DNA of 63,923 nucleotides, filler included, from an uncultured Gemmatimonadota bacterium (GTDB lineage: Bacteria; GCA-2686955), in NCBI GenBank assembly GCA_964490075.1. It is 3 parts of 3 records of this genome, joined end to end, with 100 filler letters (N's around TTAATTAATTAA, not from the genome) between each part and the next. Parts side by side here need not be neighbours in the genome. Positions count along the whole stretch, not along the records: positions 26,208 to 50,453 come from CAZBBK010000076.1; 2 more parts are not named here. One strand, 5' to 3'. Made by a program: the position numbers and the translations under genes. Under the pieces are notes generated by a model. The model was not told the DNA's origin. It saw only the letters and a program-made list of their open reading frames with translations, and did no database searches. Shown here piece by piece: positions 22,323 to 50,553 of this stretch. How positions within the stretch are numbered: position 1 is the first letter of the stretch; every line of letters starts with the position of its first letter.

Positions 22323-22339
22323 CAGGGCCCGTGGTCCTT

Positions 22340-22359
22340 TGTGGATAACTTGTTGATAA
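22340..22359 (-). promoter_or_regulatory. Two tandem DnaA boxes upstream of parA
   Basis: TGTGGATAA (22340-22348) is a perfect TTATCCACA on the minus strand. TGTTGATAA (22351-22359) has one mismatch. Confidence 0.7.
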
Positions 22360-22795: not shown

Positions 22796-22899
22796 GCTCG
22801 GTCACGAATTGGGTGGCGGATCGTGGACATCCCGGCGCGGTGGAGTGCGGATGGACCGCGAGTGCCGGGGCGTCGGCGTTGTGGACTCGTCGAGGCAGT

Positions 22900-22915
22900 T
22901 GTTCCACGTGGAACA
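22900..22915. promoter_or_regulatory. parS centromere site
   Basis: Perfect palindrome TGTTCCACGTGGAACA matching the parS consensus, ~0.6 kb from parA. Confidence 0.93.
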
Positions 22916-22922
22916 GGGCTGA

Positions 22923-23390: not shown

Positions 23391-23519
23391 CTCCTGCCAA
23401 GGCTCGCTGGCCTCTCCTCCGTCACTGCGGCGGCGTGCCCGCCCGTTGTCCGACAACAGGCACCTCACGAATGGGCATGTTCGCCAAAACGCTTCCGCCT
23501 CGTGACGGAAGTTGGGCTC

Positions 23520-26107: not shown

Positions 26108-26207
26108 NNNNNNNNNNNNNNNNNNNNNNNNNNNNNNNNNNNNNNNNNNNNTTAATTAATTAANNNNNNNNNNNNNNNNNNNNNNNNNNNNNNNNNNNNN
26201 NNNNNNN
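26108..26207. other. Artificial contig join (N-run with TTAATTAATTAA linker)
   Basis: 100 nt of Ns with a stop-in-all-frames linker at 26152-26163. Confidence 0.98.
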
Positions 26208-29528: not shown

Positions 29529-30500
29529 TTGCGAAGGCATCAGGCACTCGCTCTCCGCCTGGCGGCGGCTCTCCTGCCGGCCGGCGGAGCCGCGGCGAAC
29601 CAGGACGCCGCGGCCGTCGCCGCGATTCGCGCCGAGCTGGCCGCCCGCCCGCCGGCCGCCATCGGTGCCGCTTTCGACGTGCTCGACGCCGACGCCGACG
29701 GGCGCCTCGGCGCGACCGAGCTGCCGCCCTCCTCGATCGCCGCCCTCGATTCCCCGGACGCCGATCGCGAGGTCGACCCCGCCGAGCTGGCGTCGGCGAT
29801 CGCCCGCCACTGGAGCCGGCCTCCGCTCTCGTCGGGTCTCCTGGCCGAGTACTGGATCTGGCGCATGGCCCAGGCGGCCGAAAGCGGCGGTGCCGGTGCC
29901 GCCCTCGCGATCGGTGAGCAGGCGCTGGCCGAGGTCGGGCCCGACTACCGGCTCTGCCAGCACGTCGGCTGGCTGGCCCTCGGCGCGGGGCGGCTGGCGC
30001 TGGCGGAGCACTGCGCCGCCGAGGCCCGCTTCAGCGAGCCCTCGGCGGGCGACGTGTGGTGCCTGGAGGCCGAGATCCGGCTGGCCCGCGGCGATCTCGC
30101 CGGCGCGATCGCTCTGCTCGAGTCGAAGGTCGAGCTGCCCAGCTACCGGCTTTGCGCCCGCCTCACCCTGGCCCGGCTCTACGCCGCCGGCGGGCGCCCG
30201 GGCGATGCCAGACGGATCCTCGACGCCGCGGTGGCGAGCCCGCCCTCCTCGTCGCGCGACGCTTTTCGAGCCCACCAGCAGCTTGCCCGACTCAACCTCG
30301 AGCTGAACGACGTGCAGGCGGCGGGGCTGCACGCGCTGCGCGCGGTGGCGCTGCACCGCGTGGACGGAAGCGGCTGGGCGTTGCTGGCCAGCTTCCTGGA
30401 GAGCGCCGAAGGGGCGCCGGAGGCGGTCGACCGCGCTCGCTCCCTGGCCGTCGAGATCCGCGCGCAACAGGCTCCCGGCCGGCGCGGGGGCGCCCGATGA
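29529..30500 (+). CDS. Secreted EF-hand + TPR-like protein
   Basis: Signal-like N-terminus, DADADGRLGATE and DSPDADREVDPAE EF-hand-like loops, helical repeats. Start uncertain. Confidence 0.55.
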   Translation: MRRHQALALRLAAALLPAGGAAANQDAAAVAAIRAELAARPPAAIGAAFDVLDADADGRLGATELPPSSIAALDSPDADREVDPAELASAIARHWSRPPLSSGLLAEYWIWRMAQAAESGGAGAALAIGEQALAEVGPDYRLCQHVGWLALGAGRLALAEHCAAEARFSEPSAGDVWCLEAEIRLARGDLAGAIALLESKVELPSYRLCARLTLARLYAAGGRPGDARRILDAAVASPPSSSRDAFRAHQQLARLNLELNDVQAAGLHALRAVALHRVDGSGWALLASFLESAEGAPEAVDRARSLAVEIRAQQAPGRRGGAR

Positions 30501-31948
30501 TCCGTGCGCGGGCTCTTGGTCTGGCGCTGCTCTGCCTGCTCGGCCGGCCGGCCGTGGCGGCGCGCCCCGCCGACTCCCCCGCGCCGCCCCCGCCCCGCGG
30601 TGTGCTGATCCTGGCGGTCGACACGATGCGTGCCGATCGGGTGGGTCCGCGCGCCGGACGTCCCTCGCTCACCCCCAACATCGACCGCCTGGCCTCCGGC
30701 GCCGTCGTCTTCGAGTCGCACTACGCGCCGGCCTCCTGGAGCCTGCCCTGCTACGCCAGCCTCTTGACCGGCGCCTGGCCCACCCGGCACGGCGTGCTGG
30801 ACCAGAACCAGAAGCTGCCCCAGCGTTTCTACACCCTCGCCGAGGTGCTTTCGGCCTACGGTTTCCGCGCCGCCGGTTTCGTCGGTGGGTCGCATCTGAC
30901 CGGGATCTTCGATCTGAAACAGGGTTTCGAGGTCTGGGCCGACCAGCCGAACTTCGGCTCCTTCTACCACTCCGTGCCGCGGGCGCTGGCCTGGCTCGAT
31001 CGGCTCCAACCGGACCAGAAATTTCTGTTGCTCGTTCAGGGCTACGACTGTCATACCCCGTACTACGTCCCACACGGCCTGGGCGAGCTCTTCGATCCCG
31101 ACTACTCCGGCGTGGTGCACGATCTCGATCTGCTGGACTTCACCCGGCTGCACCTGATCCGCGATCGTCGCTACTACCCCGGACGCAAGGTGCCGGTGTC
31201 GTCCGATCCGCGACACCAACCGATCGGAGGTGAATACGTTTCGCTCGATGACGCCGACATCGATCATATCCGCGCCCACTACGACGCCGCGGTCTGGTAC
31301 TCCGATCTCTGGATCGGCATCCTGCTCGACGAGCTGAAGCGCCGCGGCCTCTACGACGACACTCTGATTCTACTGCTCGGCGACCACGGCGAAGATCTGA
31401 TGGAGCACGGCTTCTTCTTCCATCGCAACGCCCTCTATCGACAGAATATCCACACCCCCCTGATCCTCAAGCTGGCCGGGGGACGCCACGCGGGGCGGCG
31501 CATCGCGGCGCCGGTGTCGACCGTCGATCTGTTGCCGACCTTGCTCGGGCTGCTCGGCGCGACCTCGCCCGCCGGCCAGGTCGACGGCCGCGATCTGGGC
31601 GCCTGGCTCGCCGCCGAGGAACCGGCCGAGGCGCGGCCGGTGTTCTCGATGCTGAGCGATCAGCGCTCGGTGGTCTGGGGCCGCTGGCACCTGCTGCGCC
31701 GCCTGGGCCAATCGCGTCGCTACGATCCCGAGATCGAGCTCTACGATTTGCTGAGCGATCCGGCCGAGGAGCACGATCTGGCGAGCGCGCGCCCCGACGT
31801 GGTGGCGCGCCTCTCGGCGGCGCTGCAGCGCTGGCAGGACGAACAGCCGCGCGCCCCGCGCGCCGAGACCGTCGATCTCGACGCCCGCCTGGAGAACGCA
31901 CTGCGGGCGGGCGGCTACTGGGAGCACCGGCGGGAGGATCCCCGGTGA
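30497..31948 (+). CDS. Sulfatase-like (alkaline phosphatase superfamily) hydrolase/transferase
   Basis: DTMRAD, TPNID.LA, ASWSLPCYASLLTG, GDHGE, ELYDL.SDP.E. Confidence 0.85.
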   Translation: MIRARALGLALLCLLGRPAVAARPADSPAPPPPRGVLILAVDTMRADRVGPRAGRPSLTPNIDRLASGAVVFESHYAPASWSLPCYASLLTGAWPTRHGVLDQNQKLPQRFYTLAEVLSAYGFRAAGFVGGSHLTGIFDLKQGFEVWADQPNFGSFYHSVPRALAWLDRLQPDQKFLLLVQGYDCHTPYYVPHGLGELFDPDYSGVVHDLDLLDFTRLHLIRDRRYYPGRKVPVSSDPRHQPIGGEYVSLDDADIDHIRAHYDAAVWYSDLWIGILLDELKRRGLYDDTLILLLGDHGEDLMEHGFFFHRNALYRQNIHTPLILKLAGGRHAGRRIAAPVSTVDLLPTLLGLLGATSPAGQVDGRDLGAWLAAEEPAEARPVFSMLSDQRSVVWGRWHLLRRLGQSRRYDPEIELYDLLSDPAEEHDLASARPDVVARLSAALQRWQDEQPRAPRAETVDLDARLENALRAGGYWEHRREDPR

Positions 31949-39100: not shown

Positions 39101-39610
39101 ATGTCGAGTCCCGAATCGGGCCATCCCCATGGAGATACCGTGAACGAAACAGAGGCAATCCGGCAAGCACCCGAGCTCAAAGGCTCGGCGACCCACGAGC
39201 GGCTGAGGCGCGCCTTCGACATCGCCTCGCGTTCCGTGCAGCGCCTGCTCTATCTCGCCAACATGGCCGACATCGAGGGCCGCTCCCACGCTGCTTCCGC
39301 CTTGCGCGAGCTGGCCCAGGGCGAGGCGGTGAACGCCCAGGGACACCTCGATCTGCTGCGACGGGTTGGAGATCCGGTGACCGGCCTGCCGATCGGAGAG
39401 ACCAGACAGAATCTCGACGCCCTGAGGGTGTCGGAGCTCGACGAGGCCGAAACCACCTACCCGAACATGGCGCGCACCGCCCGTGCCGAGGGCTTCCTCG
39501 ACATCGCCGACTGGTTCGACACCTTGGCGAAGGCCAAACGGGACTTCGCCGCACGCCTCGACGACCTGTCTTCTCCGCAGGATGCACCCGTCGCCGGCGA
39601 TTCCGCCTGA
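39101..39610 (+). CDS. Rubrerythrin-like (short ferritin-fold) protein with degenerate diiron ligands
   Basis: LKGS.T...L..AF, AD.EG, GHL, GDP.TGLPIG.T..NL, YP.MA.TAR.EGF.DIADWF.TLAKA. Alternative GTG start at 39140. Confidence 0.8.
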   Translation: MSSPESGHPHGDTVNETEAIRQAPELKGSATHERLRRAFDIASRSVQRLLYLANMADIEGRSHAASALRELAQGEAVNAQGHLDLLRRVGDPVTGLPIGETRQNLDALRVSELDEAETTYPNMARTARAEGFLDIADWFDTLAKAKRDFAARLDDLSSPQDAPVAGDSA

Positions 39611-39638
39611 GCCACCCACGCCGCGCCTCGAAATAGCC

Positions 39639-41612
39639 ATGAGCCACTCCACCAACGATTCCGCCGGCCCCAGCCGCCAGGTCTACGACGCCCGCAGCAT
39701 CACCGTGCTGCCCGGGCTCGAAGCGGTTCGCCGCCGCCCCGGCATGTACATCGGTGCCACCGACGTCCAAGGGCTGCACCACCTGGTCTTCGAGGCGGTC
39801 GACAACGCCGTCGACGAGTCGCTGGCCGGTTTCTGCGCCCGCATCGCGGTCGCCGTCCACCGGGACGGCTCCTGCTCCGTCGAAGACGACGGCCGCGGCA
39901 TCCCGGTCGACCTGCACCCCGACGAGAACAAGCCGGCCTGTGAGGTGGTGCTCACCACGCTGCACTCCGGCGGCAAGTTCGAGCGCGGCAGCTACGGCAT
40001 CGCGGCCGGCCTGCACGGGATCGGGATCTCGACCGTCAACGCGCTCTCGGAGTGGCTCACGCTCGACGTCTACCGCGACGGCGTGAGCTACCGCCAGCGC
40101 TACCGGCGCGGGCGCGTCGCATCGCCCCTCGAGGAGGTGGGATCGATCGAGCGCCGCGGCACCCGAATCCACTTCATGCCCGACGCGGAGATCTTCGGCG
40201 CGGGCGTCGAATTCTCCGCCGAGCGTCTGCTGAGCCGGCTGCGGGAGCTCGCCTTCCTGGAGCCCGGCATCGAGATCCGCTACTCCGACGAGCGCGACGG
40301 GCGCGACGAGCTCTTCTGCTTCGCGGGCGGGATCCCCAGCTTCGTCGAGCACCTGAACCGCGCCCGCACCGCGCTGCACCCCGCGCCGATCCACATGCGC
40401 TCGCGCCTGAACGGCATCCGCATCGAGCTCGGCCTGCAATGGACCACCGGCTACGCCGAGGATCTGTGCAGCTTCGTCAACCACGTGCGCACCTCCGATC
40501 ATGGCAGCCACGTCGACGGCCTGATGGCGGCCATGACGCGGGCCATGAACCGCCATGCCGCCGACCGCCGGCTGCTCGAGTCGGGGGAGCGGCTGCAGAC
40601 CATGGACCTGCTAGAGGGACTGGCCGGCGTGCTCTCGGTGCAAATGACCGAGCCGCAGCTCGAGGGGCAGACCAAGACCCGCCTGCGCAGCGACCACGTG
40701 GCGGAGGTGGTCGAGGAGGGGGTGGTGCGGCACCTCGCGAGCTACCTCGAGGAGAATCGCTCGGTGGCCGCCACCATCATCGGTCGGGCGCTCGAGGCGC
40801 AGCGGGCACGGATCGCCGCCCGGCGAGCATCCGAGAGCGCTCGCTACGAAGCCTCCCAGGCCGAGGTCAACGAAGATGTCTACCGCGCTCAGTTCGGCAT
40901 CCGCTCGGAGAACTGGCACGAGTCGGCCACCTGGATCACCCACGAGAACCTGCTGGCGGCCCACGCCGCGGCCTCGAAGATGCCCGAGGACGGAGTGCTG
41001 CTCGACGTCTGCTGCGGCAGCGGCGTGGTGGGGGCCTCGTTCCAGGGCAAGGTGGGGCGCATCGTCGGCCTCGACCTCACCCCGCAGATGGCCGCGCTGG
41101 CTCGCACCCGACTGGACGAGGTGCACCTCGGCAACATCTATCACATCCCCTTCGACGAAGGCACCTTCGACGGCGTGGTGACGCGCGAGGTGCTGCACCT
41201 GCTGCCGGAGCCGGAGCGCCCGGTGGCGCAGATCTTCCGGGTGCTGAAGCCGGGCGGCCAGTTCATCGTCGGCCACATCCTGCCCTACGGGCCGACCGAT
41301 GCGCCGTGGATGTGGCGGGTCTTCAAGAAGAAGCAGCCGCTCATCTTTAGCATGTTCCAGGAGGAGGACTTCCGCGCGCTCCTGGAACAGGCCGGGTTCG
41401 TCGACATCGAGATGACCGAGCAGACCGTCTGGGAGTCGATCGACCTCTGGATCGACACCCACGAGACGCCCGCCATCCACCGCCACGAGATTCGCCGCCT
41501 CTTCGACAGCGCGCCGCAGATGGTTCGTGACGTCCATCCCTTCGAGATCCTGCCGAGCGGCGAGATCCGCGACCTCTGGCGTTGGTGCGTGTTCTCGGCG
41601 CGCAAGCCCTGA
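39639..41612 (+). CDS. Fusion: GyrB/ParE N-terminal GHKL ATPase+transducer domain :: class I SAM methyltransferase
   Basis: GLEAVRRRPGMYIG, LHHLVFEAVDNAVDE, DDGRGIP, LHSGGKF, GLHGIG, EGQTK, ARIAARRA. No TOPRIM; instead LLDVCCGSG, GLDLT..M, FD.V, VLKPGG. Confidence 0.88.
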   Translation: MSHSTNDSAGPSRQVYDARSITVLPGLEAVRRRPGMYIGATDVQGLHHLVFEAVDNAVDESLAGFCARIAVAVHRDGSCSVEDDGRGIPVDLHPDENKPACEVVLTTLHSGGKFERGSYGIAAGLHGIGISTVNALSEWLTLDVYRDGVSYRQRYRRGRVASPLEEVGSIERRGTRIHFMPDAEIFGAGVEFSAERLLSRLRELAFLEPGIEIRYSDERDGRDELFCFAGGIPSFVEHLNRARTALHPAPIHMRSRLNGIRIELGLQWTTGYAEDLCSFVNHVRTSDHGSHVDGLMAAMTRAMNRHAADRRLLESGERLQTMDLLEGLAGVLSVQMTEPQLEGQTKTRLRSDHVAEVVEEGVVRHLASYLEENRSVAATIIGRALEAQRARIAARRASESARYEASQAEVNEDVYRAQFGIRSENWHESATWITHENLLAAHAAASKMPEDGVLLDVCCGSGVVGASFQGKVGRIVGLDLTPQMAALARTRLDEVHLGNIYHIPFDEGTFDGVVTREVLHLLPEPERPVAQIFRVLKPGGQFIVGHILPYGPTDAPWMWRVFKKKQPLIFSMFQEEDFRALLEQAGFVDIEMTEQTVWESIDLWIDTHETPAIHRHEIRRLFDSAPQMVRDVHPFEILPSGEIRDLWRWCVFSARKP

Positions 41613-41719
41613 GCGCCGCCCGCCGCCGGTCCATGAAGCCCCTTGAACGATGATATGCTAGCCCTACCAGCGAGACGCTGGCCCGAGCCACACGACTCGG
41701 AACGCTAGGAGTGAACGCC

Positions 41720-43405
41720 ATGCGCAAACCATCACTGGCTCCAGAGCTCTACGCCGCATCGGATACCACGGTCGATCAGCACTATATGGGTCTGATGCGC
41801 GAGCAGGATCAGGCACCGCGCCCGACCGACCGGAACCTGCCGCGCTTCTCCCTGGTGGTCGGCCCCTCGCCCTTCACCATGCCGCGCGGCTGGGAATTCT
41901 TCCTGACCTCGCCCTACGAAGGTGCGAGCTACGTCGCCACGGTGCTGCACAACGCCGGCTACCCGACCCGCATCATCGACGTGCGCTACGCCCGCGACCC
42001 GATCGGCGAAGCACTGCGCCAGATCGAGGAGGGGACCGACGTGCTCGGGGTTTGCACCTTCGAGGACAACTACCCCTTCGTGCGCCGGCTGGTCGACCGC
42101 GTCAAGGACGCATCGCCGCAGCTGCCGGTGATCCTGGGCGGCTCGCTGGTGACTTCGTCGCCGCATATCTTCATGCAGCACACGCGTGCCGACATCGGAG
42201 TGATCAGCGAAGGCGAGCTCACCATCCTGGAGCTGATGGAGGCCTACACCGCCGGCCAGTGGCCGCGCCGCCTGAGCGAGATCCGCGGTCTGGTCTACCG
42301 CGACGCCGAGGGCAAGATGCGCCGCACCCCGCCGCGCGGTCAGATGCCCGATCTCGACTCGCTGCCGCGCATGCGCCTCGATCTCTGGCCGCAGGCCCAG
42401 GGACCGCAGGGGTTGCAGCCGCAGATCATCGCCTCCTACAGCCGCGGCTGCTACATGGACTGCTCGTTCTGCTACCGCACCACGCCCCAGGAACGGGTCA
42501 AGTCCCCCGAGAAGATGAACGCCGACATGAAGTGGCTGAAGGAGCGCTACGACACCGAGTTCATCTTCTTCGTCGACCTCACCTTCAGCGCCCGCCGCGA
42601 CTACACCCTGCAGATGATGGACGTGATCAAGGACCACGACGTGCGCTGGACCTGCCTCACCCGCTGCTCCGACGTCGACCCGGTGCGCCTGGAGGCGATG
42701 AAGGGGGCCGGCGCCGACATCATCCTCTACGGCGTGGAGTCGCTCGGCAAGGCGAGCCTGAAAGAGGCGCGCAAGGGCAACTCCGAAAATCTGACGGTGC
42801 GCGCCATGTACGACACCTGGGACGCCGGCATCCGCTTCGGCGGCCTGATGATCGTCGGCCTGCCCGGCGAGACCAAGGAGACCCTCGACCACGCCTGCGA
42901 CTGGGCCGAGGAGCACCAGCACATCACCCGCGTCAAGTACCTCTCGGCCATGCCCGGCACCTCGGTGTTCCAGCAGGGGCTGCAAGACGGCCTGATCCGT
43001 TCCGAGATCGATCACCTGAACTGGCTGTCGATCGAGCAGGCCCTGGTGCAGGACGAGTTCATCAACTACACAGGCATGCCGGAAGCCGACCTGCGCGTCG
43101 CCTACCGGCGTCTCTACGATGCCTATCAGCCGGGTCCGGTGGTCGACTTCAAGCACTGGCCCGGCTTCTTCGAGTACCATCAGCCCAACACGACCGACGG
43201 CTCCGGCGCCTGCGTCGACTACGCGGGCCAGGGCTGGCGATCGCGGTTCTCCTCGGCCGGGCCCTACCTGCTTCCGGGCTCCGAGTCCTTCGGGCTGGCC
43301 GACGTGGGCGCGCGGGGAGTGAGCGACACCGGGGCCGCCGTCGACTGGGCGGTCGAGATGCGTGAAAAGGAGTTTCGCGCGCCACTGGAAGCGAATGGCG
43401 GTTGA
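41720..43405 (+). CDS. B12-binding radical SAM enzyme (class B methyltransferase-like)
   Basis: N-terminal cobalamin-binding fold (VILGG, EGE.TI.EL), SRGCYMDCSFC, YGVES, IVGLPGET, PGT. AGGAG RBS at 41707. Confidence 0.9.
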   Translation: MRKPSLAPELYAASDTTVDQHYMGLMREQDQAPRPTDRNLPRFSLVVGPSPFTMPRGWEFFLTSPYEGASYVATVLHNAGYPTRIIDVRYARDPIGEALRQIEEGTDVLGVCTFEDNYPFVRRLVDRVKDASPQLPVILGGSLVTSSPHIFMQHTRADIGVISEGELTILELMEAYTAGQWPRRLSEIRGLVYRDAEGKMRRTPPRGQMPDLDSLPRMRLDLWPQAQGPQGLQPQIIASYSRGCYMDCSFCYRTTPQERVKSPEKMNADMKWLKERYDTEFIFFVDLTFSARRDYTLQMMDVIKDHDVRWTCLTRCSDVDPVRLEAMKGAGADIILYGVESLGKASLKEARKGNSENLTVRAMYDTWDAGIRFGGLMIVGLPGETKETLDHACDWAEEHQHITRVKYLSAMPGTSVFQQGLQDGLIRSEIDHLNWLSIEQALVQDEFINYTGMPEADLRVAYRRLYDAYQPGPVVDFKHWPGFFEYHQPNTTDGSGACVDYAGQGWRSRFSSAGPYLLPGSESFGLADVGARGVSDTGAAVDWAVEMREKEFRAPLEANGG

Positions 43406-43439
43406 GCGCGCCGCGGGGCGGCGGGCGCAGGAGTGAAGA

Positions 43440-44180
43440 TTGACAGCCCAGGATGTTCGGGAACATTTCTCGGCGCGAGCGGAACGCTATGACCGTTCCA
43501 GCCACTGGTGCGGCGACCGCGATTTCCTGCGGCGGATCATCGCCCGGATCGGCGTCGGACCGGGCGCGACGGTGCTCGACGTGGCGTCGGGGACCGGTCA
43601 GGTGGCACGGGTGCTGCGGGAGACGGGCGCGACCGTGGTCGGGCTCGATTTCACGGAGGCGATGCTGCGCCAGGGAGTCCTCCGCACCGACCGTTTCTTG
43701 ACCGCCTCGGCCGAGGCGATGCCGCTGGCCGACGACTCTGTCGACGCGGCGATTGAGCGCCAGGGGATCCAGTTCATGGACGACCAGGCGGCGGTGCGCG
43801 AGATGGTGCGGGTGACGCGCCCCGGCGGGCGGGTCTGCCTGGTGCAGCTCTGCGCTTTCGGCAACGACGACGAGCGCGAGTACTTCGAGATTCTGCGGCT
43901 GCGCAACCCGGCCCGGCGCAACTTCTACCGGCTCGAGCGGCTGGACGAGCTGCTGCGCAACGCGGGCTGCCGCGAGGTGGCGGTGCACCGCGAGCACTCC
44001 CGCGAGGACGTCCGGATCTGGGCCGACAACGGAGCCATTCAGAGCGAGGCTCAGCGCGCCATCGAGGCCTGCTACCGCGACGCCTCGGAGCCTTTCCGGC
44101 GCCTGCACCAGGTGCACTTCGAGGGCGAGGGGACGATCGTCGACCACATGCTCTTCGGCATCGCGATTGGTACTTGTTGA
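43440..44180 (+). CDS. Class I SAM-dependent methyltransferase
   Basis: VLDVASGTG, GLDFT.AML, EMVRVTRPGG. TTG start with AGGAG RBS. Confidence 0.9.
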   Translation: MTAQDVREHFSARAERYDRSSHWCGDRDFLRRIIARIGVGPGATVLDVASGTGQVARVLRETGATVVGLDFTEAMLRQGVLRTDRFLTASAEAMPLADDSVDAAIERQGIQFMDDQAAVREMVRVTRPGGRVCLVQLCAFGNDDEREYFEILRLRNPARRNFYRLERLDELLRNAGCREVAVHREHSREDVRIWADNGAIQSEAQRAIEACYRDASEPFRRLHQVHFEGEGTIVDHMLFGIAIGTC

Positions 44181-45598
44181 TGGGGACCAGCCAGCAGGGA
44201 CCGATCGGGGGCACGGGCCAGGCGGCGGAGTCGCTGGACGAGGCCCGTCCCAACGGCATCGATTCCGGTCTGGTGGCGGCGCTGAGCGACATTGCGCAGC
44301 GATCGCCGATCTCGACCCAGAGCTTTCGGCGCCGCGTGCGCGATCTGATCCTGGTCTGCTCGAGCTCGCGGGGCGGCTCCAGCGTGTTCTCCGAGATGCT
44401 GCGCCACTCCGAAGATCTGCTGCATTTCCGCGCCGAGATCAACCCCTTCCTGGTGCTCAGCGAGCTCTCGTGGCCGCGCAGCGAGACCGGCTCGGACCAG
44501 CTCCACGCCCACCACGCGACGCGCGCCGACGCCCTCGACTTCTGGCTGGCCTGGGATGTCGGCGGGCAGGCGGAGCGTCTGCGCAACGACGAAGAGCTGG
44601 ACCGTTTCGCGGTGCATCTCACCTGGCGGCTGCAGGCGCAGTGGCCGGAGGAGCGCTTCGAGATCGACGAGGTGCATCGCCGGGCGCTCGAGGTACTGCG
44701 CGAGCCCAGCGACAACCATCCCGGAATCGACGATCCGCAGCATTTCCACATCTGCTTCCTGAAACGGCTGCGGCGCGACCATCCGCGGGTCAACCCCTAC
44801 TACTACGATCTCGATCCGGCGCTGATCGCTCGGCTCGATCCCGAGGCGGGTGTTCCCGACGGTCCGCCCAGCGACTTCCTGATCGAGGAGCCGCCCTTCG
44901 TCGCCACCCTGCCCTGGGCGGTGCCGACCGCGGAGGAGATCGAGAGCCGCCCGCTGGTGATCAAGACGCCGAGCAACGCCTATCGGCTGCCCTTCTTCCG
45001 CGCTTTCTTCCCCAACGCCCGCATCCGCACCCTGCACCTGACCCGCCACGCCGCCGACGCCATCAACGGCCTCTACGACGGCTGGCTGCACCGCGGCTTC
45101 TTCTCCCATCCGGTGCAGGCGGCGCTCGGGGGCCGCGAGCTGAGCATCCCTTCCTACAGCGACGACCAGCCCGAGTGGGGGAAGAGCTGGTGGAACTTCG
45201 ACCTGCCGCCGGGCTGGCAGGAGTGGATCGACGCGCCTCTGGAGCAGGTCTGCGCCTTCCAGTGGCGGGCGGCGCACCAGGCGGTGCTCGACTGGGTGGC
45301 CGAGGCTGACTCGGTCGACTACTTCCGGGTGTCGTTCGAAGAGAGCGTGCTGGCGTCTCCGGCCAAGCGCCGCGAGGTCTTCGAACGCCTGGCGGCATGG
45401 ATCGGAATCCCCTACCGGGGCGGGTTGGCGCGGGCGGTTCAGAGGGGACTGCCGCCGATCATGGCGATGGCGCCGCCCAAGCGCGACCGCTGGCGGGCGC
45501 GCGCCGAGCGCATCGAGCCCTTGCTGCGCGAGCCCCGCAACCGGGAGCTGCTGCTGCGCCTGGACTATCCGGCGCCGGCGCCGCGCGAGGGGCCCTGA
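44180..45598 (+). CDS. PAPS-dependent sulfotransferase family protein
   Basis: 5'-PSB-like SSSRGGSS..SEML, V.KTP.N, HLTR...D.I.GL..GW, CA.QW, V.FEE. TGATG coupling with the upstream gene. Confidence 0.8.
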   Translation: MGTSQQGPIGGTGQAAESLDEARPNGIDSGLVAALSDIAQRSPISTQSFRRRVRDLILVCSSSRGGSSVFSEMLRHSEDLLHFRAEINPFLVLSELSWPRSETGSDQLHAHHATRADALDFWLAWDVGGQAERLRNDEELDRFAVHLTWRLQAQWPEERFEIDEVHRRALEVLREPSDNHPGIDDPQHFHICFLKRLRRDHPRVNPYYYDLDPALIARLDPEAGVPDGPPSDFLIEEPPFVATLPWAVPTAEEIESRPLVIKTPSNAYRLPFFRAFFPNARIRTLHLTRHAADAINGLYDGWLHRGFFSHPVQAALGGRELSIPSYSDDQPEWGKSWWNFDLPPGWQEWIDAPLEQVCAFQWRAAHQAVLDWVAEADSVDYFRVSFEESVLASPAKRREVFERLAAWIGIPYRGGLARAVQRGLPPIMAMAPPKRDRWRARAERIEPLLREPRNRELLLRLDYPAPAPREGP

Positions 45599-45605
45599 GG
45601 GCCCG

Positions 45606-47168
45606 ATGAGCCCCAAGCTCGGCCTGGTCGCCCTCGCGGGACTCATCGTCGCGACGGGTGTGGCGATCCTGCATCTGCTCGGCCGAGGCGCATCGGAGCC
45701 GGTTGCCGCGCAGAGGGAGCCCCTGCACTTCGAGACCCGGCAGCCGAACTTGCTGGTGATCGCCCTCAACAACGTCTCCTGGGAGCACATGAGCCTCTCC
45801 GGCTACCATCGCCAGACCACGCCCGAGCTCGATCGCTGGGCGCGCGATGCGGTCGTTTTCAAAAACTTCTACTCCCACTGCTCGTGGACTCTGCCGGCCG
45901 GCACCTCGCTTTTCACCTCGCTCTATCCCTACAGCCATCGCGTGATGGATCGCTATCACGGCAATCTGCTCGACGAAGAGGTGATGCCCCTGGCCGAGGT
46001 GCTGGCGCGCAACGGCTACCGCGGCGCGGCGTTCACCGGGGGGCTCGACTACAAGCCGATCTTCGGACATATGCGGGGCTTCGAGCAGATCGCCGACAAT
46101 CCCAACTTCACCTCTTTCGCCACTACTTTCGCCCAGGCCGAAGAGTGGATCGAAGAGAGCGACGGCCGTCCTTTCTTCTGTTTCGTACACGGTTACGACG
46201 CCCATTCCCCCTTCAATCCGCCCGAACGCTTCAAGGGTGTGTTCAGCGATCCGGCGGGCAAGAACATCACCGTGACCACGCAGTACTCATTGCGCGGCTA
46301 CCAGGCCGAGGGCGGGGACTATGTCGCTTATTACATCTGGAACGAAGACCCTTTCTTGAAGAAGTCGGAGGCCGAGCGTGCCGGCAAGCGCTTTCCGATG
46401 GAGCGGCGCGTGGTGCTGACCGCCGACGACATCGACTATCTGACCGCGCTCTACGACGAGGAGCTGCTCTATATCGATTCGTTGCTGGCCGATTTCCTGT
46501 CTTCGTTGCAGCCGTCGGTGCTCGACAACACGGTGATCGCACTGGTTTCCGAGCATGGCGAGATGTTCGCCAAGCACGGGCGCTTCGGGCGCGCGGGAAC
46601 GGTGCGTGGCAACCTCTACGACGACGTGGTGCACGTTCCATTTCTGTTGCGAGCTCCGGGACTGGAAGGGCGGCGGGTCGATGCCCTGGCGCAGATGGTC
46701 GATGTGATGCCGACGCTGCTGGAGCTGCTGGGGATCACTCCGCCGGTCGGCGTGCAGGGCAAAAGTCTGTTGCCGGCGGTGGAGAGCGGCGCGGTGGTCA
46801 ACGAGCTGGTCTTCGCCGGAGCGCGTTTCAACCACGCGCGCAAGAAGAGACACCCTTTCTTCTGGGCCGAGACGCTGAACGAGTCGGTGCGCAGCCGCCG
46901 GTGGAAGCTGATCCGCGAGCTGGTCCACCCGGCCGCCAAGGGCTGGGAGGTGATCGAGGCGGCCGAGACCTTCGAGCTCTACGACATGGCGGAGGATCTG
47001 GGCGAGCAGGTCGACGTGGCGGCACTTCATCCGGATGTGACGGAGCGGCTCAAAGGCGAGCTTGCGGCCTGGGCCGATGAGTGCGGGGCCGCGGCGCGGA
47101 TGAGCCCGGCGACGGTCGAGGTGTCCGGCGAGATGGAACGCGAAGCGCGCGAGAAGGGCTATTGGTGA
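45606..47168 (+). CDS. Membrane-anchored sulfatase-like protein
   Basis: PNLLVI, GY.RQTTPELD, SWTLPAGTSLFT, HGYDAH, SEHGE, DVMPTLL, ELYD. Confidence 0.85.
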   Translation: MSPKLGLVALAGLIVATGVAILHLLGRGASEPVAAQREPLHFETRQPNLLVIALNNVSWEHMSLSGYHRQTTPELDRWARDAVVFKNFYSHCSWTLPAGTSLFTSLYPYSHRVMDRYHGNLLDEEVMPLAEVLARNGYRGAAFTGGLDYKPIFGHMRGFEQIADNPNFTSFATTFAQAEEWIEESDGRPFFCFVHGYDAHSPFNPPERFKGVFSDPAGKNITVTTQYSLRGYQAEGGDYVAYYIWNEDPFLKKSEAERAGKRFPMERRVVLTADDIDYLTALYDEELLYIDSLLADFLSSLQPSVLDNTVIALVSEHGEMFAKHGRFGRAGTVRGNLYDDVVHVPFLLRAPGLEGRRVDALAQMVDVMPTLLELLGITPPVGVQGKSLLPAVESGAVVNELVFAGARFNHARKKRHPFFWAETLNESVRSRRWKLIRELVHPAAKGWEVIEAAETFELYDMAEDLGEQVDVAALHPDVTERLKGELAAWADECGAAARMSPATVEVSGEMEREAREKGYW

Positions 47169-48013
47169 GGGGCGTAGGGGACGGCGCTTGGAGCGTCGCG
47201 CTGGCGTTTGTGCTGTGGGCGGCGGCCTGTGGCGGGGAGCGGGGGGACTGGGTCGAGGAGCAGAGGTTCGCGAACATCCCACGCAGTGGAAAGCGGGTGG
47301 TCTCCGGCCGGGTGGATTGCCCCGACTGCGAGGGAGAGATCCAGGTGACGGTGGCGGAGCTGCGGTTCGAGCTGACCGGCTCGCCGATCATCCGCGAGAT
47401 CGTCTGGATCGAGGAGCCGTGGCGCTTTCGCATCGACCGGCTGCCGGAAAAAGCGTCGCTGTCGATTCAGGCGCGTTGGGATCCGGGCGACACGGTGAGC
47501 TGGGGACCGCCCCTACCGAGCAGCCGGCTGATGCAGATCGAGCCCTTCCCTCCGGGCTCGGAGCCGATCGAAGGGATCGAGCTGGCGCTGCTGACCGCCG
47601 GCCAGGTGAAGGTCCGGCCGGGGGGGGGCGAGTCGGAGCGGAGGGCGACTCCCCCGAGTCCATTGAAGCTGGTGGACGAGCCCGAGGGCCTGCGGGTGCG
47701 GACTCTCACCGGCACGATCGAGTGCGCGGCCTGCACCGGCAGCTTGGCGGTGTTCCTCTCGGCGGTTCCGGTCGAAGATCCGCTGAGCACGGAGGTGGAC
47801 GCGCGGGTGTTTTTACACTCGGGCGAGGAGTTCAGCTTTGGCGGCGTGATCGCGACTCGCGAGTTCTTCCTCGGAGCCCGCTGGGACGCCGACGGCGAGC
47901 CGGGGCGGGGGCCGCCGGGACCCGAGGACCACTTCACGGTGCGGCCCATTCCGGCGCTGGGGCTGGACGAAGAGCAGCTCCCCCTGGCGATCGATTTGAT
48001 GTCGGCTTGGTGA
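47165..48013 (+). CDS. Hypothetical lipoprotein with two homologous CxxC-containing domains
   Basis: Lipobox AAAC. SGRVDCPDCEG...ARWDPG..GPP and TGTIECAACTG...ARWDADG..GPP. Confidence 0.6.
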   Translation: MRGVGDGAWSVALAFVLWAAACGGERGDWVEEQRFANIPRSGKRVVSGRVDCPDCEGEIQVTVAELRFELTGSPIIREIVWIEEPWRFRIDRLPEKASLSIQARWDPGDTVSWGPPLPSSRLMQIEPFPPGSEPIEGIELALLTAGQVKVRPGGGESERRATPPSPLKLVDEPEGLRVRTLTGTIECAACTGSLAVFLSAVPVEDPLSTEVDARVFLHSGEEFSFGGVIATREFFLGARWDADGEPGRGPPGPEDHFTVRPIPALGLDEEQLPLAIDLMSAW

Positions 48014-48479: not shown

Positions 48480-49955
48480 CTAGTACTCCGCAATCGGCGT
48501 CTCGCGCAAATCGCGGAACGACTCGGGCGCCTGGCGCACGCGACGCATCCAGCCGCGCAGCTCCTGCTCCATCTCGTAGGTGCGGCGCGGCGCGCGGCTG
48601 GAGAGGTCCTGGCGCTCCAGCGGGTCGGAGCTCAGGTCGTAGAGCTCGCGCTGCCCGCTGCGCAGGTCGAAGATCAGCTTCCAGGGGCCGTCGCGCAGCA
48701 TCCGCCGGTGCACGAAGAGCCGGTAGTCGGTCTCGGCGATCACCTCGATCTCGAGCGGCTCGCCGCGCAGCAGGGGCAAGAGGCTGCGGGCGTCGATCCC
48801 GACCGGCGGCGCGATCCCCAGGGCGTCGAGCACGGTCGGCAGGGCGTCCATCGAGCGCACCGGCTCGGTGATCTCCAGGCGCTTGGTGTAGCCCGGGAAG
48901 CGGATCAGGAGCGGTACGTGGACCATCTCCTGGTAGAGCGTGGGACCGTGATCCAGCCCGCCGTGCTCGCCGAACTCCTCGCCGTGGTCGGCCAGCACGA
49001 TGATGATGGTGCGCGAGAGCAGATCGAGGCGCCGGAGCGCGCTCAGGAAACGCCCCACCTGCTCGTCGGCCGCCTGCACCTTCTCGTCGTAAAGCCCCAG
49101 GTGGTACTCGAAGTCGGCCGCGCTCATCAGGTCGGAGGCGCGCGGGCCGCCCTCTTCGGTGTAGCAGGTCAGCGATTGCTCGCGGATCTCGGCCTGCTCG
49201 TCCTTGCCCCCTTTCAGGGTGCCGTCGTAGTCGGGGGTGAAGTGGCCCGAGTAGCCGGAGGCCGGATCGAACTGGCCGTGCACGTCGTAGCCGTGCAGGA
49301 AGAGGAAGAAGCGCTCGCTGCGGTGCGTTTCCAGCCACGAGATGGCGGCCGGAACCGAGTGCGGCAGGCCGCCGAACTTCTCGTCGTCGAGGTAGGTTTC
49401 GAAGCCGCGCGAGAAGCCGAACTCGCCCGAGACCCCGGCGTCGCCGGTGAAGCCGCCGCAGAGGAAGCCCTGGTCGCGCAGCAGCTCAGGCATGGTCGGG
49501 ATGGCCGGCGAGAGCGAGGCGCGCTCCAGGCGATCGCCGCCGACTACCCGCAGCTTGTTCACCACGCCGTGGATCGAGGGCCAGCGCCCGGTGAAGATCG
49601 ACATGTGGGACGGAAGGGTCCAGGCCGAGGGCGAGGTGGCGTCGGCGAAGAACACCGCCTCGTCGGCCAGGCGGTCGAGATTCGGGGTGACGTCGCGCTC
49701 GTTGCCGCCGAAGCCGCAGCGGTCGTAGCGCAGGGCGTCGAGCGAGATCAGGCAGATATTGAGCGGCTCGCCTTCGAAGTCGAAGCGGGATTCGGCCCGG
49801 GTGCGCTCTTCGAGCAGGCGGCCGATGCGCTCGCCGCCGCTGCTCTCGGCCTCGGAGGGGCGATCGAGCAAGAGCCAGACGATGACGGCGACGTTTGCGG
49901 CGACGATCGCCGCGCCGGCCATCAGGAAGGGACGCAGGCGGCTGGATTGGCTCAT
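48480..49955 (-). CDS. Membrane-anchored sulfatase-like protein
   Basis: ISLDALRYD, TPNLD.LA, AWTLPSHMSIFTG, HGYDVH, ADHGEE, ELYDL..DP.E. Confidence 0.88.
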   Translation of the reverse strand: MSQSSRLRPFLMAGAAIVAANVAVIVWLLLDRPSEAESSGGERIGRLLEERTRAESRFDFEGEPLNICLISLDALRYDRCGFGGNERDVTPNLDRLADEAVFFADATSPSAWTLPSHMSIFTGRWPSIHGVVNKLRVVGGDRLERASLSPAIPTMPELLRDQGFLCGGFTGDAGVSGEFGFSRGFETYLDDEKFGGLPHSVPAAISWLETHRSERFFLFLHGYDVHGQFDPASGYSGHFTPDYDGTLKGGKDEQAEIREQSLTCYTEEGGPRASDLMSAADFEYHLGLYDEKVQAADEQVGRFLSALRRLDLLSRTIIIVLADHGEEFGEHGGLDHGPTLYQEMVHVPLLIRFPGYTKRLEITEPVRSMDALPTVLDALGIAPPVGIDARSLLPLLRGEPLEIEVIAETDYRLFVHRRMLRDGPWKLIFDLRSGQRELYDLSSDPLERQDLSSRAPRRTYEMEQELRGWMRRVRQAPESFRDLRETPIAEY

Positions 49956-50453
49956 GAGGGGTCCGGCTTGGTGGTTCCAGGGCCTGTGCGGGGGGCTCCC
50001 GCCGGCCCGGATGGAATCTAGCACGGGGTGGGGGTGGGCACGGCGAGCCTGATGAACGTTGACACTTCGACATGACGCTCGCCTTTAGAGCACACCCCGC
50101 CGAGGCGACGATCTCGACTTCGTCAGCCCCGCCTTCCGGAGCGAAAACGCGCCTCCAGGTTGGGACCCCCGTGCCCACCCGGACTTCGGCCCCTTCGCTA
50201 TTCTCGACATTCAGTTCGAAGACGAGACAACCATCACCGAGCATTCTCAAACCTGGGGTCTGGTCGACGCCCTGGCAAAGGCTGATGCCAGGCCCTACAT
50301 GGTCCCCTACGTGAAGCTGAGCGGCTACATGGAGAACGTCAACGGACAGGTGCAAGAGGCGATCATGGACCGTACCTTCTGGCCCGAGACCGTCACCACC
50401 GGCAGCATCGTGCTCAACTCGGGGCCGCCGCAGTGATCGGCCCGATTTTGACA

Positions 50454-50553
50454 NNNNNNNNNNNNNNNNNNNNNNNNNNNNNNNNNNNNNNNNNNNNTTA
50501 ATTAATTAANNNNNNNNNNNNNNNNNNNNNNNNNNNNNNNNNNNNNNNNNNNN
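50454..50553. other. Artificial contig join
   Basis: N-run with TTAATTAATTAA linker. Confidence 0.98.

What the first reader, a model, noticed from the sequence alone, without database searches (positions are those of the whole stretch)
39639..41612. GyrB ATPase domain fused to a SAM methyltransferase
Seen: one open frame encodes the whole GyrB N-terminal ATPase/transducer region. The residues equivalent to E. coli E42/N46 (FEAVDN), D73 (DDGRG), K103 (GGKF), the GLHGxG lid and QTK are present. At the end of the transducer helix (ARIAARRA, ~40840) it switches to a class I methyltransferase rather than TOPRIM. Known: the GyrB N-domain is an ATP-gated dimerising clamp and the aminocoumarin target; with no TOPRIM and no gyrA nearby this cannot be a gyrase. 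Inference: an ATP-gated methyltransferase, or a decoy/self-resistance module that binds and methylates a GyrB-targeting metabolite. I do not recognise this architecture from characterised proteins.
Basis: partly seen in the sequence, partly recalled or inferred. Interest (0 to 1): 0.92.

Follow-up and report, generated by a model that had tools for sequence, protein, structure and literature searches.

The report
Gyrase-ATPase methyltransferase of sulfamate pathway
This is a real, intact gene that joins the ATP-driven clamp of DNA gyrase to a methyltransferase; the family is already known genetically from two Streptomyces antibiotics, where it is needed to build a rare sulfamate group, and here it sits with the same partner genes in a marine bacterium.

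Summary
ORF 39639-41612 (+), 657 aa, has a complete GyrB N-terminal ATPase and transducer, then a class I SAM methyltransferase (MT) and no TOPRIM. It is not a chimera. 118 of the 119 other listed relatives share the architecture. Both halves are under purifying selection, and per-run contigs span the junction.

The architecture is already in print. The protein is 55% identical over 98% of its length to the Streptomyces calvus/virens protein that fits NucP. [quoted passage not shown] AcmP is its ascamycin counterpart (PMC4257720). The window carries the matching sub-cluster Q-P-J-L-O-G, at 39101-47168.

No biochemistry for NucP/AcmP turned up.

New here:
- The ATPase and dimerisation residues are invariant or nearly so in 118 members.
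- The fusion has a single origin within GyrB.
- J, O and N co-occur with it in 6 of 6 genomes across phyla.
- A model supports docking of the pseudo-rubrerythrin Q onto the MT cap.

The decoy/self-resistance reading is not supported. This scan met the same family twice before on other DNA. Verdict: a new member of a known kind.

The parts
39101..39610 (+). Q: pseudo-rubrerythrin (NucQ/AcmQ-like), 169 aa from ATG 39101
   Evidence: Pfam Rubrerythrin E 6e-06. A homologue lies directly upstream of the fusion in 6 of 6 loci with upstream sequence. It lacks canonical di-iron ligands in alignment A2. A model supports docking onto the MT domain of P.
39639..40313 (+). P, aa 1-225: N-terminal arm plus GHKL ATPase domain of GyrB type
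   Evidence: HATPase_c. Aligned to E. coli GyrB43. The equivalents of Y5, I10, E42, N46, D73, K103, Y109, G114, G117, G119 and T165 are kept in 116-118 of 118 relatives.
40314..40838 (+). P, aa 226-400: GyrB transducer domain with the QTK loop (aa 344-346) and the C-terminal helix
   Evidence: DNA_gyraseB E 2.4e-43. The K337 equivalent is kept in 118 of 118 and Q335 in 112 of 118. dN/dS 0.21 against the L001 orthologue.
40839..41612 (+). P, aa 401-657 plus stop: short flexible linker, class I SAM methyltransferase and a conserved C-terminal cap
   Evidence: Methyltransf_11 and relatives. AF2 model pLDDT 86.1, pTM 0.83, with low confidence at about aa 397-408. Closest folds are YcgJ 1xxl and BH2331 1vl5, TMt 0.83. 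Motif I LDVCCGSG is invariant apart from V (114 of 118) and S (113 of 118). dN/dS 0.06.
41711..43405 (+). J: B12-binding radical SAM protein, 564 aa (matches the size and kind of AcmJ/NucJ)
   Evidence: Pfam B12-binding plus Radical_SAM. Orthologues at 56-84% identity in 6 of 6 genomes that carry the fusion.
43440..44180 (+). L: stand-alone UbiE/BioC-like methyltransferase, 246 aa (NucL/AcmL-like), a distant paralogue of the MT domain of P
   Evidence: Methyltransf_11. Homologues in L001, L002, L003, L004 and L028. 21-29% identical to the MT domains of the fusions, E 1e-17 to 1e-30.
44174..45598 (+). O: 474-aa protein with a weak Sulfotransfer_3 match (NucO/AcmO-like)
   Evidence: Sulfotransfer_3 E 1.3e-07, the same weak signal the paper reports for NucO. 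Orthologues in 6 of 6 fusion genomes and 0 of 4 without it. O-N and O-APS-kinase fusion proteins exist.
45606..47168 (+). G: sulfatase, 520 aa (NucG/AcmG-like), last gene of the co-directional block
   Evidence: Pfam Sulfatase E 1.9e-40. 71% identical to the gene at the same position in L001.

Best explanation
The gene is an orthologue of NucP/AcmP. That protein is the GyrB-ATPase::methyltransferase of the gene set that builds the sulfamate (O-SO2-NH2) group of nucleocidin and ascamycin.

In the window it is the second gene of a six-gene block, Q-P-J-L-O-G:
- Q, pseudo-rubrerythrin
- P, the fusion
- J, B12-radical SAM
- L, small methyltransferase
- O, sulfotransferase-like
- G, sulfatase

The companion sulfotransferase K and amidinotransferase-like N probably lie elsewhere in the genome, as they do in its closest relatives.

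Shown:
- Identity, architecture and synteny.
- Purifying selection on both halves.
- An intact ATPase and dimerisation apparatus and an intact SAM site.
- A single origin from GyrB.

Inferred:
- The N-terminal half still works as in gyrase. ATP binding closes a dimer through the N-terminal arms, and the QTK lysine completes the site.
- This gates or pairs the two C-terminal methyltransferase domains, which hang on a short flexible linker.
- Each MT domain carries a Q subunit on its substrate-side cap.
- The P-Q complex then performs a methyl transfer that does not survive in the final product. This would be a cryptic or activating methylation of a sulfur-oxygen intermediate, on the way to S-N bond formation or sulfamoyl transfer.

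My odds: NucP/AcmP family member in a sulfamoylation cassette, about 0.9. ATP-gated dimeric MT working with Q, about 0.5. Cryptic activating methylation, about 0.2. The confidence figure given for this explanation (0.75) is for the family identity together with a role in sulfamoyl-group assembly, not for the detailed mechanism.
For: Architecture and similarity:
- Pfam architecture and the alignment to E. coli GyrB43.
- 55% identity over 98% coverage (E 9.4e-237) to P0089. Its 90% cluster holds S. virens and S. calvus proteins.
- The acm gene table lists acmG, J, K, L, N, O, P and Q with matching sizes and kinds, and Frankia homologues Francci3_1756-1762 (PMC4257720).

Synteny and co-occurrence:
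- Q, P, J, L, O and G recur in Gemmatimonadota-, Myxococcota- and Elusimicrobia-labelled loci.
- L004 and L028 also hold K and N.
- In six genomes with P, the counts are N 6 of 6, O 6 of 6, J 6 of 6 and K 5 of 6. In four genomes where P was not found, N is 0 of 4, O 0 of 4 and a J orthologue 0 of 4.

Conservation:
- ATPase and arm residues are kept in 116-118 of 118 relatives. MT motif I is invariant or nearly so.
- dN/dS is 0.23, 0.21 and 0.06 for GHKL, transducer and MT.

Evolution:
- 35 fusion N-halves form one side of a branch (SH-aLRT 99) against 14 GyrB/ParE N-halves. These include those of four genomes that also carry the fusion.

P-Q complex model:
- Score 0.68, best control 0.05. The mark was reached by 58 of 80 solved complexes and 2 of 110 mismatched pairs.
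- The runs agree in at least 86% of contacts, and the partner's pLDDT is at least 78.
- The interface is P 523-524, 551-563, 569-574 and 613-620 against Q 54, 57-58 and 133-148.
- It falls on columns that are invariant in the P family (W557, R560, K563).
Against: - No assay of any family member was found, so the substrate, the role of ATP and the role of the methyl group are all inferred.
- The window has no K or N homologue (tblastn), and no whole genome is held for it. Completeness of the pathway in this organism is therefore unproven.
- I could not check the identity of the window's J, L, O and G with the Streptomyces Nuc proteins by sequence. Only NucP-cluster sequences were in hand, and no Streptomyces name appeared among the 120 listed O relatives.
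- The K110 equivalent of GyrB is variable in the family.
- The complex model is a prediction made with my own alignments, and the Q alignment has only 11 rows.
- The C-half query found the family in 0 of 401 sampled genomes of the phylum of G004. Only 6 candidates per genome were scored, so the cassette is rare or was under-detected.
- The final sulfamates carry no methyl group, so a methyl-transfer role is paradoxical and the 'cryptic methylation' idea is speculative.
Confidence: 0.75

Rival explanations
1. The GHKL domain is used chemically or as a nucleotide-binding module rather than as a clamp. It would bind the adenosine-based substrate or product, which mimics AMP/ATP. Alternatively it would transfer a phosphoryl or adenylyl group to a sulfate ester to activate it for amination, with the MT domain acting separately.
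For: The known products are 5'-O-sulfamoyl adenosines (PMC9113183 passages). The adenine-binding D73 and T165 equivalents are invariant. GHKL folds include kinases (established knowledge, recalled). Activating a sulfate ester needs energy.
Against: Residues specific to GyrB-type hydrolysis and dimerisation are also kept: the Y5 and I10 arm residues (116 of 118 each), the E42 general base (117 of 118), and the trans-acting QTK lysine and full glycine lid (118 of 118). A simple binding module would not need them. No residue suggests a phosphoryl acceptor site. The product in non-actinomycete hosts is unknown.
Confidence: 0.12
2. It is a decoy or self-resistance protein. It would soak up and methylate a metabolite that targets the GyrB ATP site.
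For: The aminocoumarin-contact equivalents D73, R136 (113 of 118) and T165 are conserved. The protein cannot act as a gyrase.
Against: Deleting the Streptomyces orthologue blocks sulfamylation, which is a biosynthetic phenotype (PMC10946740). The conserved neighbours are sulfur-handling enzymes, not a gyrase-inhibitor pathway. The known products act on protein synthesis and aminoacyl-tRNA synthetases, not on gyrase (PMC9113183 passages; PMC7613620 abstract in the listing). A decoy would not need the hydrolysis and dimerisation residues.
Confidence: 0.03
3. It acts on DNA. It would be an ATP-operated DNA clamp that delivers a methyltransferase, perhaps linked to the BREX-type defence genes 3 kb downstream.
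For: GyrB43 dimers enclose a DNA-sized cavity (established knowledge, recalled). BrxHI and PglZ homologues lie at 50937-54820. There is a weak PADLOC match to the MT part of 'mad2', E 1.5e-15.
Against: The MT domain is of the small-molecule kind. Its closest folds are YcgJ, BH2331, RebM/AtmM and phosphoethanolamine MTs, and its closest NCBIfam models are ArsM, UbiE and BioC. No BREX gene turned up among the neighbours I scanned in L003, L004, L005 and L028. The small MT 'L' gives the same generic mad2 match.
Confidence: 0.03
4. It is an assembly chimera or a decaying pseudogene.
For: The window comes from a metagenome-type assembly. All four holder runs are from one study, and two may be the source.
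Against: 118 of the 119 other listed relatives carry the same three-domain set, and some come from finished multi-megabase contigs. Contigs of three separately assembled runs bridge the junction without differences: X1 record 1, X2 record 4 and X3 record 15. dN/dS is 0.06-0.23 along the gene.
Confidence: 0.01

Closest known systems
NucP (Streptomyces calvus / S. virens, nucleocidin cluster) and AcmP (Streptomyces sp. JCM9888, ascamycin cluster)
   Same: Same length class (657 aa against 661 and 658) and the same GyrB-N plus MT architecture. 55% identity over 98% of the length. Same neighbours: pseudo-rubrerythrin Q, small MT L, rSAM J, O and sulfatase G.
   Different: The host is a marine, Gemmatimonadota-like bacterium rather than an actinomycete. 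The cassette is cut down and probably split, with K and N not in the window. I found no amidinotransferase or PAPS gene among the window ORFs I scanned. The product here is unknown.
E. coli GyrB 43-kDa N-terminal fragment (e.g. PDB 6eng, 1ei1)
   Same: Aligns over aa 14-402 at 374 bits. The ATP-binding, hydrolysis, lid, QTK and N-terminal-arm residues are kept.
   Different: No TOPRIM or tail. A methyltransferase follows the last transducer helix. The K110 equivalent is not conserved. The family forms its own branch apart from the GyrB and ParE of the same genomes.
YcgJ (B. subtilis, 1xxl) and BH2331 (1vl5): small-molecule class I methyltransferases of unknown substrate
   Same: Best fold matches of the C-terminal half (TMt 0.83, E about 1e-18). 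Methyltransf_11 type.
   Different: 19-23% identity. The fusion's MT has an invariant Cys-Cys in motif I and an invariant KKKQPL loop and C-terminal cap that the model places against Q.
Carboxyl methylation followed by ester-amide exchange in capuramycin-type biosynthesis (CapS/CapW), and BioC-type cryptic methyl esters. Recalled from memory, from no call.
   Same: Precedent for a methyl group that is installed only to activate or mask an acid and is absent from the product. This is the logic I propose for a sulfur oxyacid here.
   Different: Those act on carboxylates and need no ATPase. No sequence relationship was tested beyond weak BioC-model matches.

Membership tests
NucP/AcmP (GyrB-ATPase::methyltransferase of sulfamoylation clusters) | Single polypeptide of about 650-660 aa: GyrB ATPase plus transducer, then a class I SAM methyltransferase, with no TOPRIM | tested here: met
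NucP/AcmP (GyrB-ATPase::methyltransferase of sulfamoylation clusters) | Full-length sequence similarity to the S. calvus / S. virens protein | tested here: met
   55% identity, 98% coverage, E 9.4e-237 to P0089. Its cluster holds S. virens and S. calvus records. That this cluster is NucP follows from the paper's statement that nucP has no paralogue. I did not check it against the deposited cluster.
NucP/AcmP (GyrB-ATPase::methyltransferase of sulfamoylation clusters) | Adjacent pseudo-rubrerythrin (NucQ/AcmQ) that lacks iron ligands and the rubredoxin domain | tested here: met
   Q at 39101-39610, 28 nt upstream. Ligand positions are replaced in cassette Qs but kept in ordinary 139-aa rubrerythrins. 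NucQ's own Figure S3 was not seen because supplements are closed.
NucP/AcmP (GyrB-ATPase::methyltransferase of sulfamoylation clusters) | Embedded with the other sulfamylation genes (J, L, O, G, and K, N, I) | tested here: inconclusive
   J, L, O and G are present and co-directional. K and N are not in the window, but they lie on another contig in the close relatives G001 and G407. No I candidate was recognised. No whole genome is held.
NucP/AcmP (GyrB-ATPase::methyltransferase of sulfamoylation clusters) | Groups with the family rather than with housekeeping GyrB/ParE | tested here: met
   One branch, SH-aLRT 99: 35 fusion against 14 GyrB/ParE N-halves.
NucP/AcmP (GyrB-ATPase::methyltransferase of sulfamoylation clusters) | Required for sulfamate formation | not testable with these tools
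   Genetic evidence exists only for S. calvus (PMC10946740).
DNA gyrase subunit B / topoisomerase IV ParE | TOPRIM domain and C-terminal GyrA/ParC-binding region; full-length model score above cut-off | tested here: not met
   No TOPRIM in Pfam. GyrB/ParE model matches cover only model positions 1 to about 400, and scores of 314-496 fall below cut-offs of 723-900.
DNA gyrase subunit B / topoisomerase IV ParE | ATP-binding and hydrolysis residues and the dimerisation arm | tested here: met
   with mapping from the alignment.
Rubrerythrin (for neighbour Q) | Two E...ExxH di-iron motifs and, in classical members, a rubredoxin domain | tested here: not met
   In the window's Q the aligned positions of four ligands are A, N, K and F. 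There is no rubredoxin domain.

The most novel reading that the evidence does not exclude
P and Q form an ATP-gated chamber, a GyrB-type clamp whose two methyltransferase domains each carry a pseudo-rubrerythrin. The chamber transiently methylates an oxygen of a sulfate or N-sulfo intermediate. That turns an inert sulfuryl group into one that can be aminated or transferred, which would be the missing step of biological sulfamate (S-N) formation.

The eight-gene set Q, P, J, L, O, G, K, N would then be a mobile pathway that crosses phyla. Marine and sediment bacteria far from Streptomyces would use it to make sulfamoyl antimetabolites of the 5'-O-sulfamoyladenosine kind.
Probability: 0.15. Interest if true: 0.85.

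Novelty: new member of a known kind. Interest (0 to 1): 0.45.

Why it matters
How nature makes the S-N bond of sulfamates is unsolved. The 2021 review calls the step "an unknown mechanism". The 2023 knockout study says its results shed no light on how the amine is incorporated, or on the roles of the remaining enzymes.

This window adds no new architecture, but the comparison does three useful things:
- It shows that the odd gyrase-derived enzyme keeps a working ATP clamp and SAM site wherever it occurs.
- It narrows the gene set to a co-occurring core (Q, P, J, L, O, N, usually K and G) found in several phyla. This gives smaller, non-actinomycete cassettes for reconstitution.
- It gives a concrete, testable pairing: Q on the cap of the MT domain.

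If the ATP-gated activating-methylation idea is right, a topoisomerase ATPase would have been re-used for small-molecule chemistry. I know of no precedent for that (recalled, from no call).

Tried and rejected
- Whole-genome search of the window's own genome: none is held. The host's own gyrB/parE could not be used, so those of the 81%-identical relative G001 and of three other fusion-bearing genomes stood in.
- Search of 401 genomes of the phylum of G004 with the C-terminal half: 0 matches at E 1e-40. Only 6 candidates per genome were scored, so this does not show absence.
- 'Phylum of G001' returned only 4 genomes.
- RNA evidence: no RNA holder was listed, so nothing can be said on expression.
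- The short extra 'joints' and loose ends lie on conserved GyrB motifs of other organisms' contigs. I ignored them.
- ThrRS next to the fusion in L005 as a possible resistance copy: it is the only ThrRS found in that genome, so it is probably housekeeping.
- Stand-alone MT relatives (39-46% identical) in G005:C63 as a possible split form: their neighbours are AtuA and ABC-transport genes, with no GyrB-like or Q gene.
- ORF 47081-48013 as a candidate NucI or NucN: no Pfam, NCBIfam or PDB match, only unnamed Atlas clusters, and no homologue in the other loci.
- PADLOC: only generic MT matches for P and L.
- Confirming the O protein as NucO by a named Streptomyces hit: none appeared among the 120 listed.
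- Literature searches for biochemistry of NucP/AcmP or of the cassette outside Streptomyces found nothing beyond PMC4257720, PMC10946740 and the review PMC9113183. Pasternak et al. (ref. 19 of PMC10946740) is not in the library and was not read.
Full report
**1. The observation**

The frame from ATG 39639 to the stop at 41610-41612 (+) encodes 657 aa. Pfam finds HATPase_c (aa 42-182), DNA_gyraseB (231-399) and Methyltransf_11 with related MT models (about 444-590). It finds no TOPRIM. Against solved structures the best match is the E. coli GyrB 43-kDa fragment, 374 bits over aa 14-402.

NCBIfam GyrB and ParE models match only their first 400 or so positions and score far below cut-off.

**2. 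Not an artefact**

Among the 120 best relatives listed in a 5.8-billion-protein search, which include the query itself, 118 of the 119 others carry the same HATPase_c + DNA_gyraseB + methyltransferase set at 53-62% identity. The exception, P0002 (517 aa), is truncated. The sources named include Streptomyces, Frankia, Sorangium, Desulfobacteraceae and MAGs.

I aligned 118 full-length members, dropping the 517-aa and 900-aa rows. Both halves are conserved, the MT and its C-terminal cap most of all. Against the 81%-identical orthologue in L001, dN/dS is 0.23 (GHKL), 0.21 (transducer) and 0.06 (MT). dS is near 1, so these values are approximate.

Contigs assembled separately from marine-metagenome runs cross the junction without differences. 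They are X1 record 1 (whole stretch), X2 record 4 (40300-40919) and X3 record 15 (40776-40926). All come from one study, and two runs may be the source of the window.

**3. What it is**

PMC10946740 (abstract, sections 7 and 9 and passages read) reports that deleting nucI, G, J, K, L, N, O, Q or P in S. calvus abolishes sulfamylation but not fluorination. It also states that none of nucK, L, N, O, Q and P has a paralogue in the producers. [quoted passage not shown] NucQ is a "pseudo-rubrerythrin" that lacks two iron ligands.

PMC4257720 (gene table and passages seen) lists these genes:

| Gene | Annotation | Length (aa) |
|---|---|---|
| acmG | sulfatase | 480 |
| acmJ | Fe-S oxidoreductase | 557 |
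| acmK | sulfotransferase | 356 |
| acmL | methyltransferase | 250 |
| acmN | amidinotransferase | 319 |
| acmO | hypothetical | 444 |
| acmP | "DNA topoisomerase II" | 658 |
| acmQ | rubrerythrin | 155 |

The table also gives Frankia homologues Francci3_1756-1762.

The window protein is 55% identical over 98% of its length to P0089. The 90%-identity cluster of P0089 holds S. virens and S. calvus records. Given the no-paralogue statement, that cluster is NucP. P0117 is the Frankia casuarinae protein.

**4. Context in the window**

Six co-directional genes with gaps of -7 to 98 nt match the published set in kind and size:

| Gene | Coordinates | Kind | Length (aa) |
|---|---|---|---|
| Q | 39101-39610 | rubrerythrin-like | 169 |
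| P | 39639-41612 | GyrB-ATPase::MT fusion | 657 |
| J | 41711-43405 | B12-binding radical SAM | 564 |
| L | 43440-44180 | UbiE/BioC-like MT | 246 |
| O | 44174-45598 | weak Sulfotransfer_3 (E 1.3e-07, as the paper reports for NucO) | 474 |
| G | 45606-47168 | sulfatase | 520 |

The next ORF, 47081-48013, matches nothing. No K-type sulfotransferase or N-type amidinotransferase is in the window (tblastn).

**5. Context elsewhere**

Q lies directly upstream of P in 6 of 6 loci where upstream sequence exists: the window, L001, L003, L004, L005 and L028. In three of them the genes overlap by 4 nt. L002 starts inside P. L, J, O and G recur in these loci. L004 (labelled Elusimicrobia) and L028 also carry N (ADI-like, 316-325 aa) and K (strong Sulfotransfer_3, 357-387 aa).

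In the window's closest relatives G001 and G407, K and N sit together on another contig. In G002 (Myxococcota-labelled) K-O-N lie about 80 kb from P, and J is on another contig.

| Gene | Genomes with P (6) | Genomes where P was not found (4) |
|---|---|---|
| N | 6 of 6 | 0 of 4 |
| O | 6 of 6 | 0 of 4 |
| J (orthologue) | 6 of 6 | 0 of 4 |
| K | 5 of 6 | not tested |

. These are small numbers from incomplete MAGs.

Among the O relatives there are O-N and O-APS-kinase fusion proteins (P0426, P0441). The genes therefore behave as one functional set even when they are scattered.

**6. Anatomy and evolution of P**

I mapped positions to E. coli GyrB from the alignment.

- Y5 and I10, the arm that contacts the partner's ATP, are kept in 116 of 118.
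- E42 and N46 are kept in 117 of 118.
- D73, R76, G77, K103, Y109, G114, G117, G119, T165 and K337 are kept in 118 of 118.
- Q335 is kept in 112 of 118, and the R136 equivalent in 113 of 118.
- Only K110 is variable.

In the MT half, most of motif I LDVCCGSG (including a Cys-Cys pair), the D479 acidic residue, the motif REVLH, a KKKQPL loop and much of the C-terminal cap are invariant.

An AF2 model of aa 380-657 is confident (pLDDT 86.1, pTM 0.83). The last transducer helix runs to about aa 402. About 10 residues around 397-408 are of low confidence. The MT fold starts near aa 412. Its nearest solved folds are the uncharacterised small-molecule MTs YcgJ and BH2331 (TMt 0.83), then RebM/AtmM and phosphoethanolamine MTs.

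L is a distant paralogue of this domain, at 21-29% identity. Stand-alone relatives at 39-61% identity exist, and those I examined sit in an unrelated context.

Every fusion-bearing genome I searched also has an ordinary GyrB, and two also have a second, more distant ParE-like copy. In a tree of 49 N-terminal halves, the 35 fusion rows form one side of a branch (SH-aLRT 99). That branch sits inside GyrB diversity, next to the Myxococcota-labelled GyrB (98). The fusion rows were every fourth member plus six chosen ones, and one duplicate row was dropped. The GyrB sample is too small to name a donor. This fits a single fusion event followed by spread across phyla.

**7. Q and its predicted docking**

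Cassette-linked Qs align with ordinary 139-aa rubrerythrins at 41-51% identity but have lost ligand positions. In the window's Q the aligned positions are:

- the E of GES is A;
- the H of the first ExxH is N;
- the E and H of the last motif are K and F.

This agrees with the published description of NucQ.

I asked for one complex prediction of P (40-row alignment) with Q (11-row alignment). The reasons were that the two genes are adjacent everywhere and both are needed for the same phenotype. The model supports binding:

- Score 0.68 (runs 0.72, 0.68, 0.66) against a best control of 0.05.
- The mark was reached by 58 of 80 solved complexes and 2 of 110 mismatched pairs.
- The runs agree in at least 86% of contacts, and the partner's pLDDT is at least 78.

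The counts hold only roughly, because my own alignments were used. The interface is P 523-524, 551-563, 569-574 and 613-620, which is just after motif IV, the KKKQPL region and the cap helices. It meets Q 54, 57-58 and 133-148, the last helix. This is a prediction, not a measurement. I know of no solved rubrerythrin-MT complex it could be remembering (recalled).

**8. How it most likely works**

Shown: the family identity, the intact ATPase and dimerisation and SAM machinery, and the linkage to the sulfamoylation genes.

Inferred: ATP closes the GyrB-type dimer and thereby gates or pairs the two MT-Q modules on their flexible linkers.

The chemical step is unknown. The review says S-N formation proceeds "by an unknown mechanism" (PMC9113183 passages). 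The knockout paper says its outcomes shed no light on how the amine is incorporated.

The products carry no methyl group, yet two MTs (L and P) are required. My preferred guess is therefore a cryptic, activating O-methylation of a sulfate or N-sulfo intermediate, which would prepare it for amination or sulfamoyl transfer. Such an ester would be reactive, and that could explain an enclosed, ATP-gated site. The analogy with carboxyl methylation followed by ester-amide exchange is recalled from memory and untested. I put this step at about 0.2.

**9. Rivals**

- The GHKL domain binds the adenosine substrate or uses ATP chemically (0.12). The conserved arm and QTK residues argue against it.
- Decoy or self-resistance (0.03). 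The biosynthetic knockout phenotype and the neighbourhood argue against it.
- A DNA-directed or defence role (0.03). BREX genes lie 3 kb away, but none turned up among the neighbours I scanned in other loci, and the MT is of the small-molecule kind.
- Chimera or pseudogene (0.01).

**10. Novelty**

The architecture and its genetic role are in print (2014, 2023), and this scan met the family twice before on other DNA. The finding is therefore a new member of a known kind, in a marine Gemmatimonadota-like genome with a cut-down, probably split cassette.

What the session adds:
- family-wide evidence that the clamp and SAM site are intact;
- the single origin of the fusion;
- the co-occurring core across phyla;
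- the predicted Q-MT docking.

Supplements of the two papers were closed. These include gene tables, Figure S3 on NucQ and construct details. They could bear on the exact identity of NucP, NucO and NucI, and I did not see them.

Noticed in passing
window 50937-54820 (+), with N runs at 50454-50497 and 50510-50553: BREX-type defence genes. The first is a BrxHI-like helicase C-terminal part (PADLOC E 7.8e-243, matching model positions 335-930 only). It is followed by PglZ (E 4.1e-252). The helicase's N-terminal part would lie where the masked N runs are.
   Followed up: partly
window 20112-25163 (-) and N runs at 26108-26207: parB, parA, an R3H (Jag-like) protein and yidC lie in a row. This is the gene order usual near a chromosomal origin, so the cassette is chromosomal and origin-proximal. 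A second masked stretch lies just beyond yidC.
   Followed up: no
window 30056-31948 (+), 45606-47168 (+), 48480-50024 (-): Three sulfatase paralogues (about 30-32% identical to each other) lie within 20 kb. Only the middle one is at the position conserved in L001. The third is 43% identical to the sulfatase in L028.
   Followed up: partly
window 28469-29443 (-); L029 13571-14575: An NrtR-type Nudix/winged-helix regulator lies 10 kb upstream of the cassette. A protein with the same Pfam domain set lies 2.5 kb from the K-N sub-cluster in relative G001.
   Followed up: no
proteins P0426 (766 aa) and P0441 (667 aa): Natural fusions of the O-type protein, one with an ADI/DDAH-like (N-type) domain and one with an APS-kinase domain. 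They link O functionally to N and to PAPS supply.
   Followed up: no
L029 6463-7437 (G001:C12): A CysZ/EI24-type sulfate-transporter gene lies directly upstream of the K gene in the K-N sub-cluster of the close relative.
   Followed up: no
L005 2930-4774: A threonyl-tRNA synthetase gene lies directly downstream of the fusion. It is the only ThrRS found in that genome, so it is probably housekeeping and not a resistance copy.
   Followed up: yes
L034 4859-6419 (G005:C63): Two tandem stand-alone methyltransferases are 46% and 39% identical to the fusion's MT domain. They sit beside AtuA and ABC-transporter genes, with no GyrB-like or rubrerythrin-like neighbour.
   Followed up: partly
PDB 3cwv: A solved 369-aa 'DNA gyrase, B subunit, truncated' chain matches aa 27-337 at E 3e-36. 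So other TOPRIM-less GyrB-derived proteins exist among solved structures.
   Followed up: no
window 47081-48013 (+): An ORF of 310 aa follows the sulfatase, with coding-like GC3. It has no Pfam, NCBIfam or PDB match and no homologue in the related loci. The nearest Atlas clusters are unnamed or 'lipoprotein family'.
   Followed up: partly
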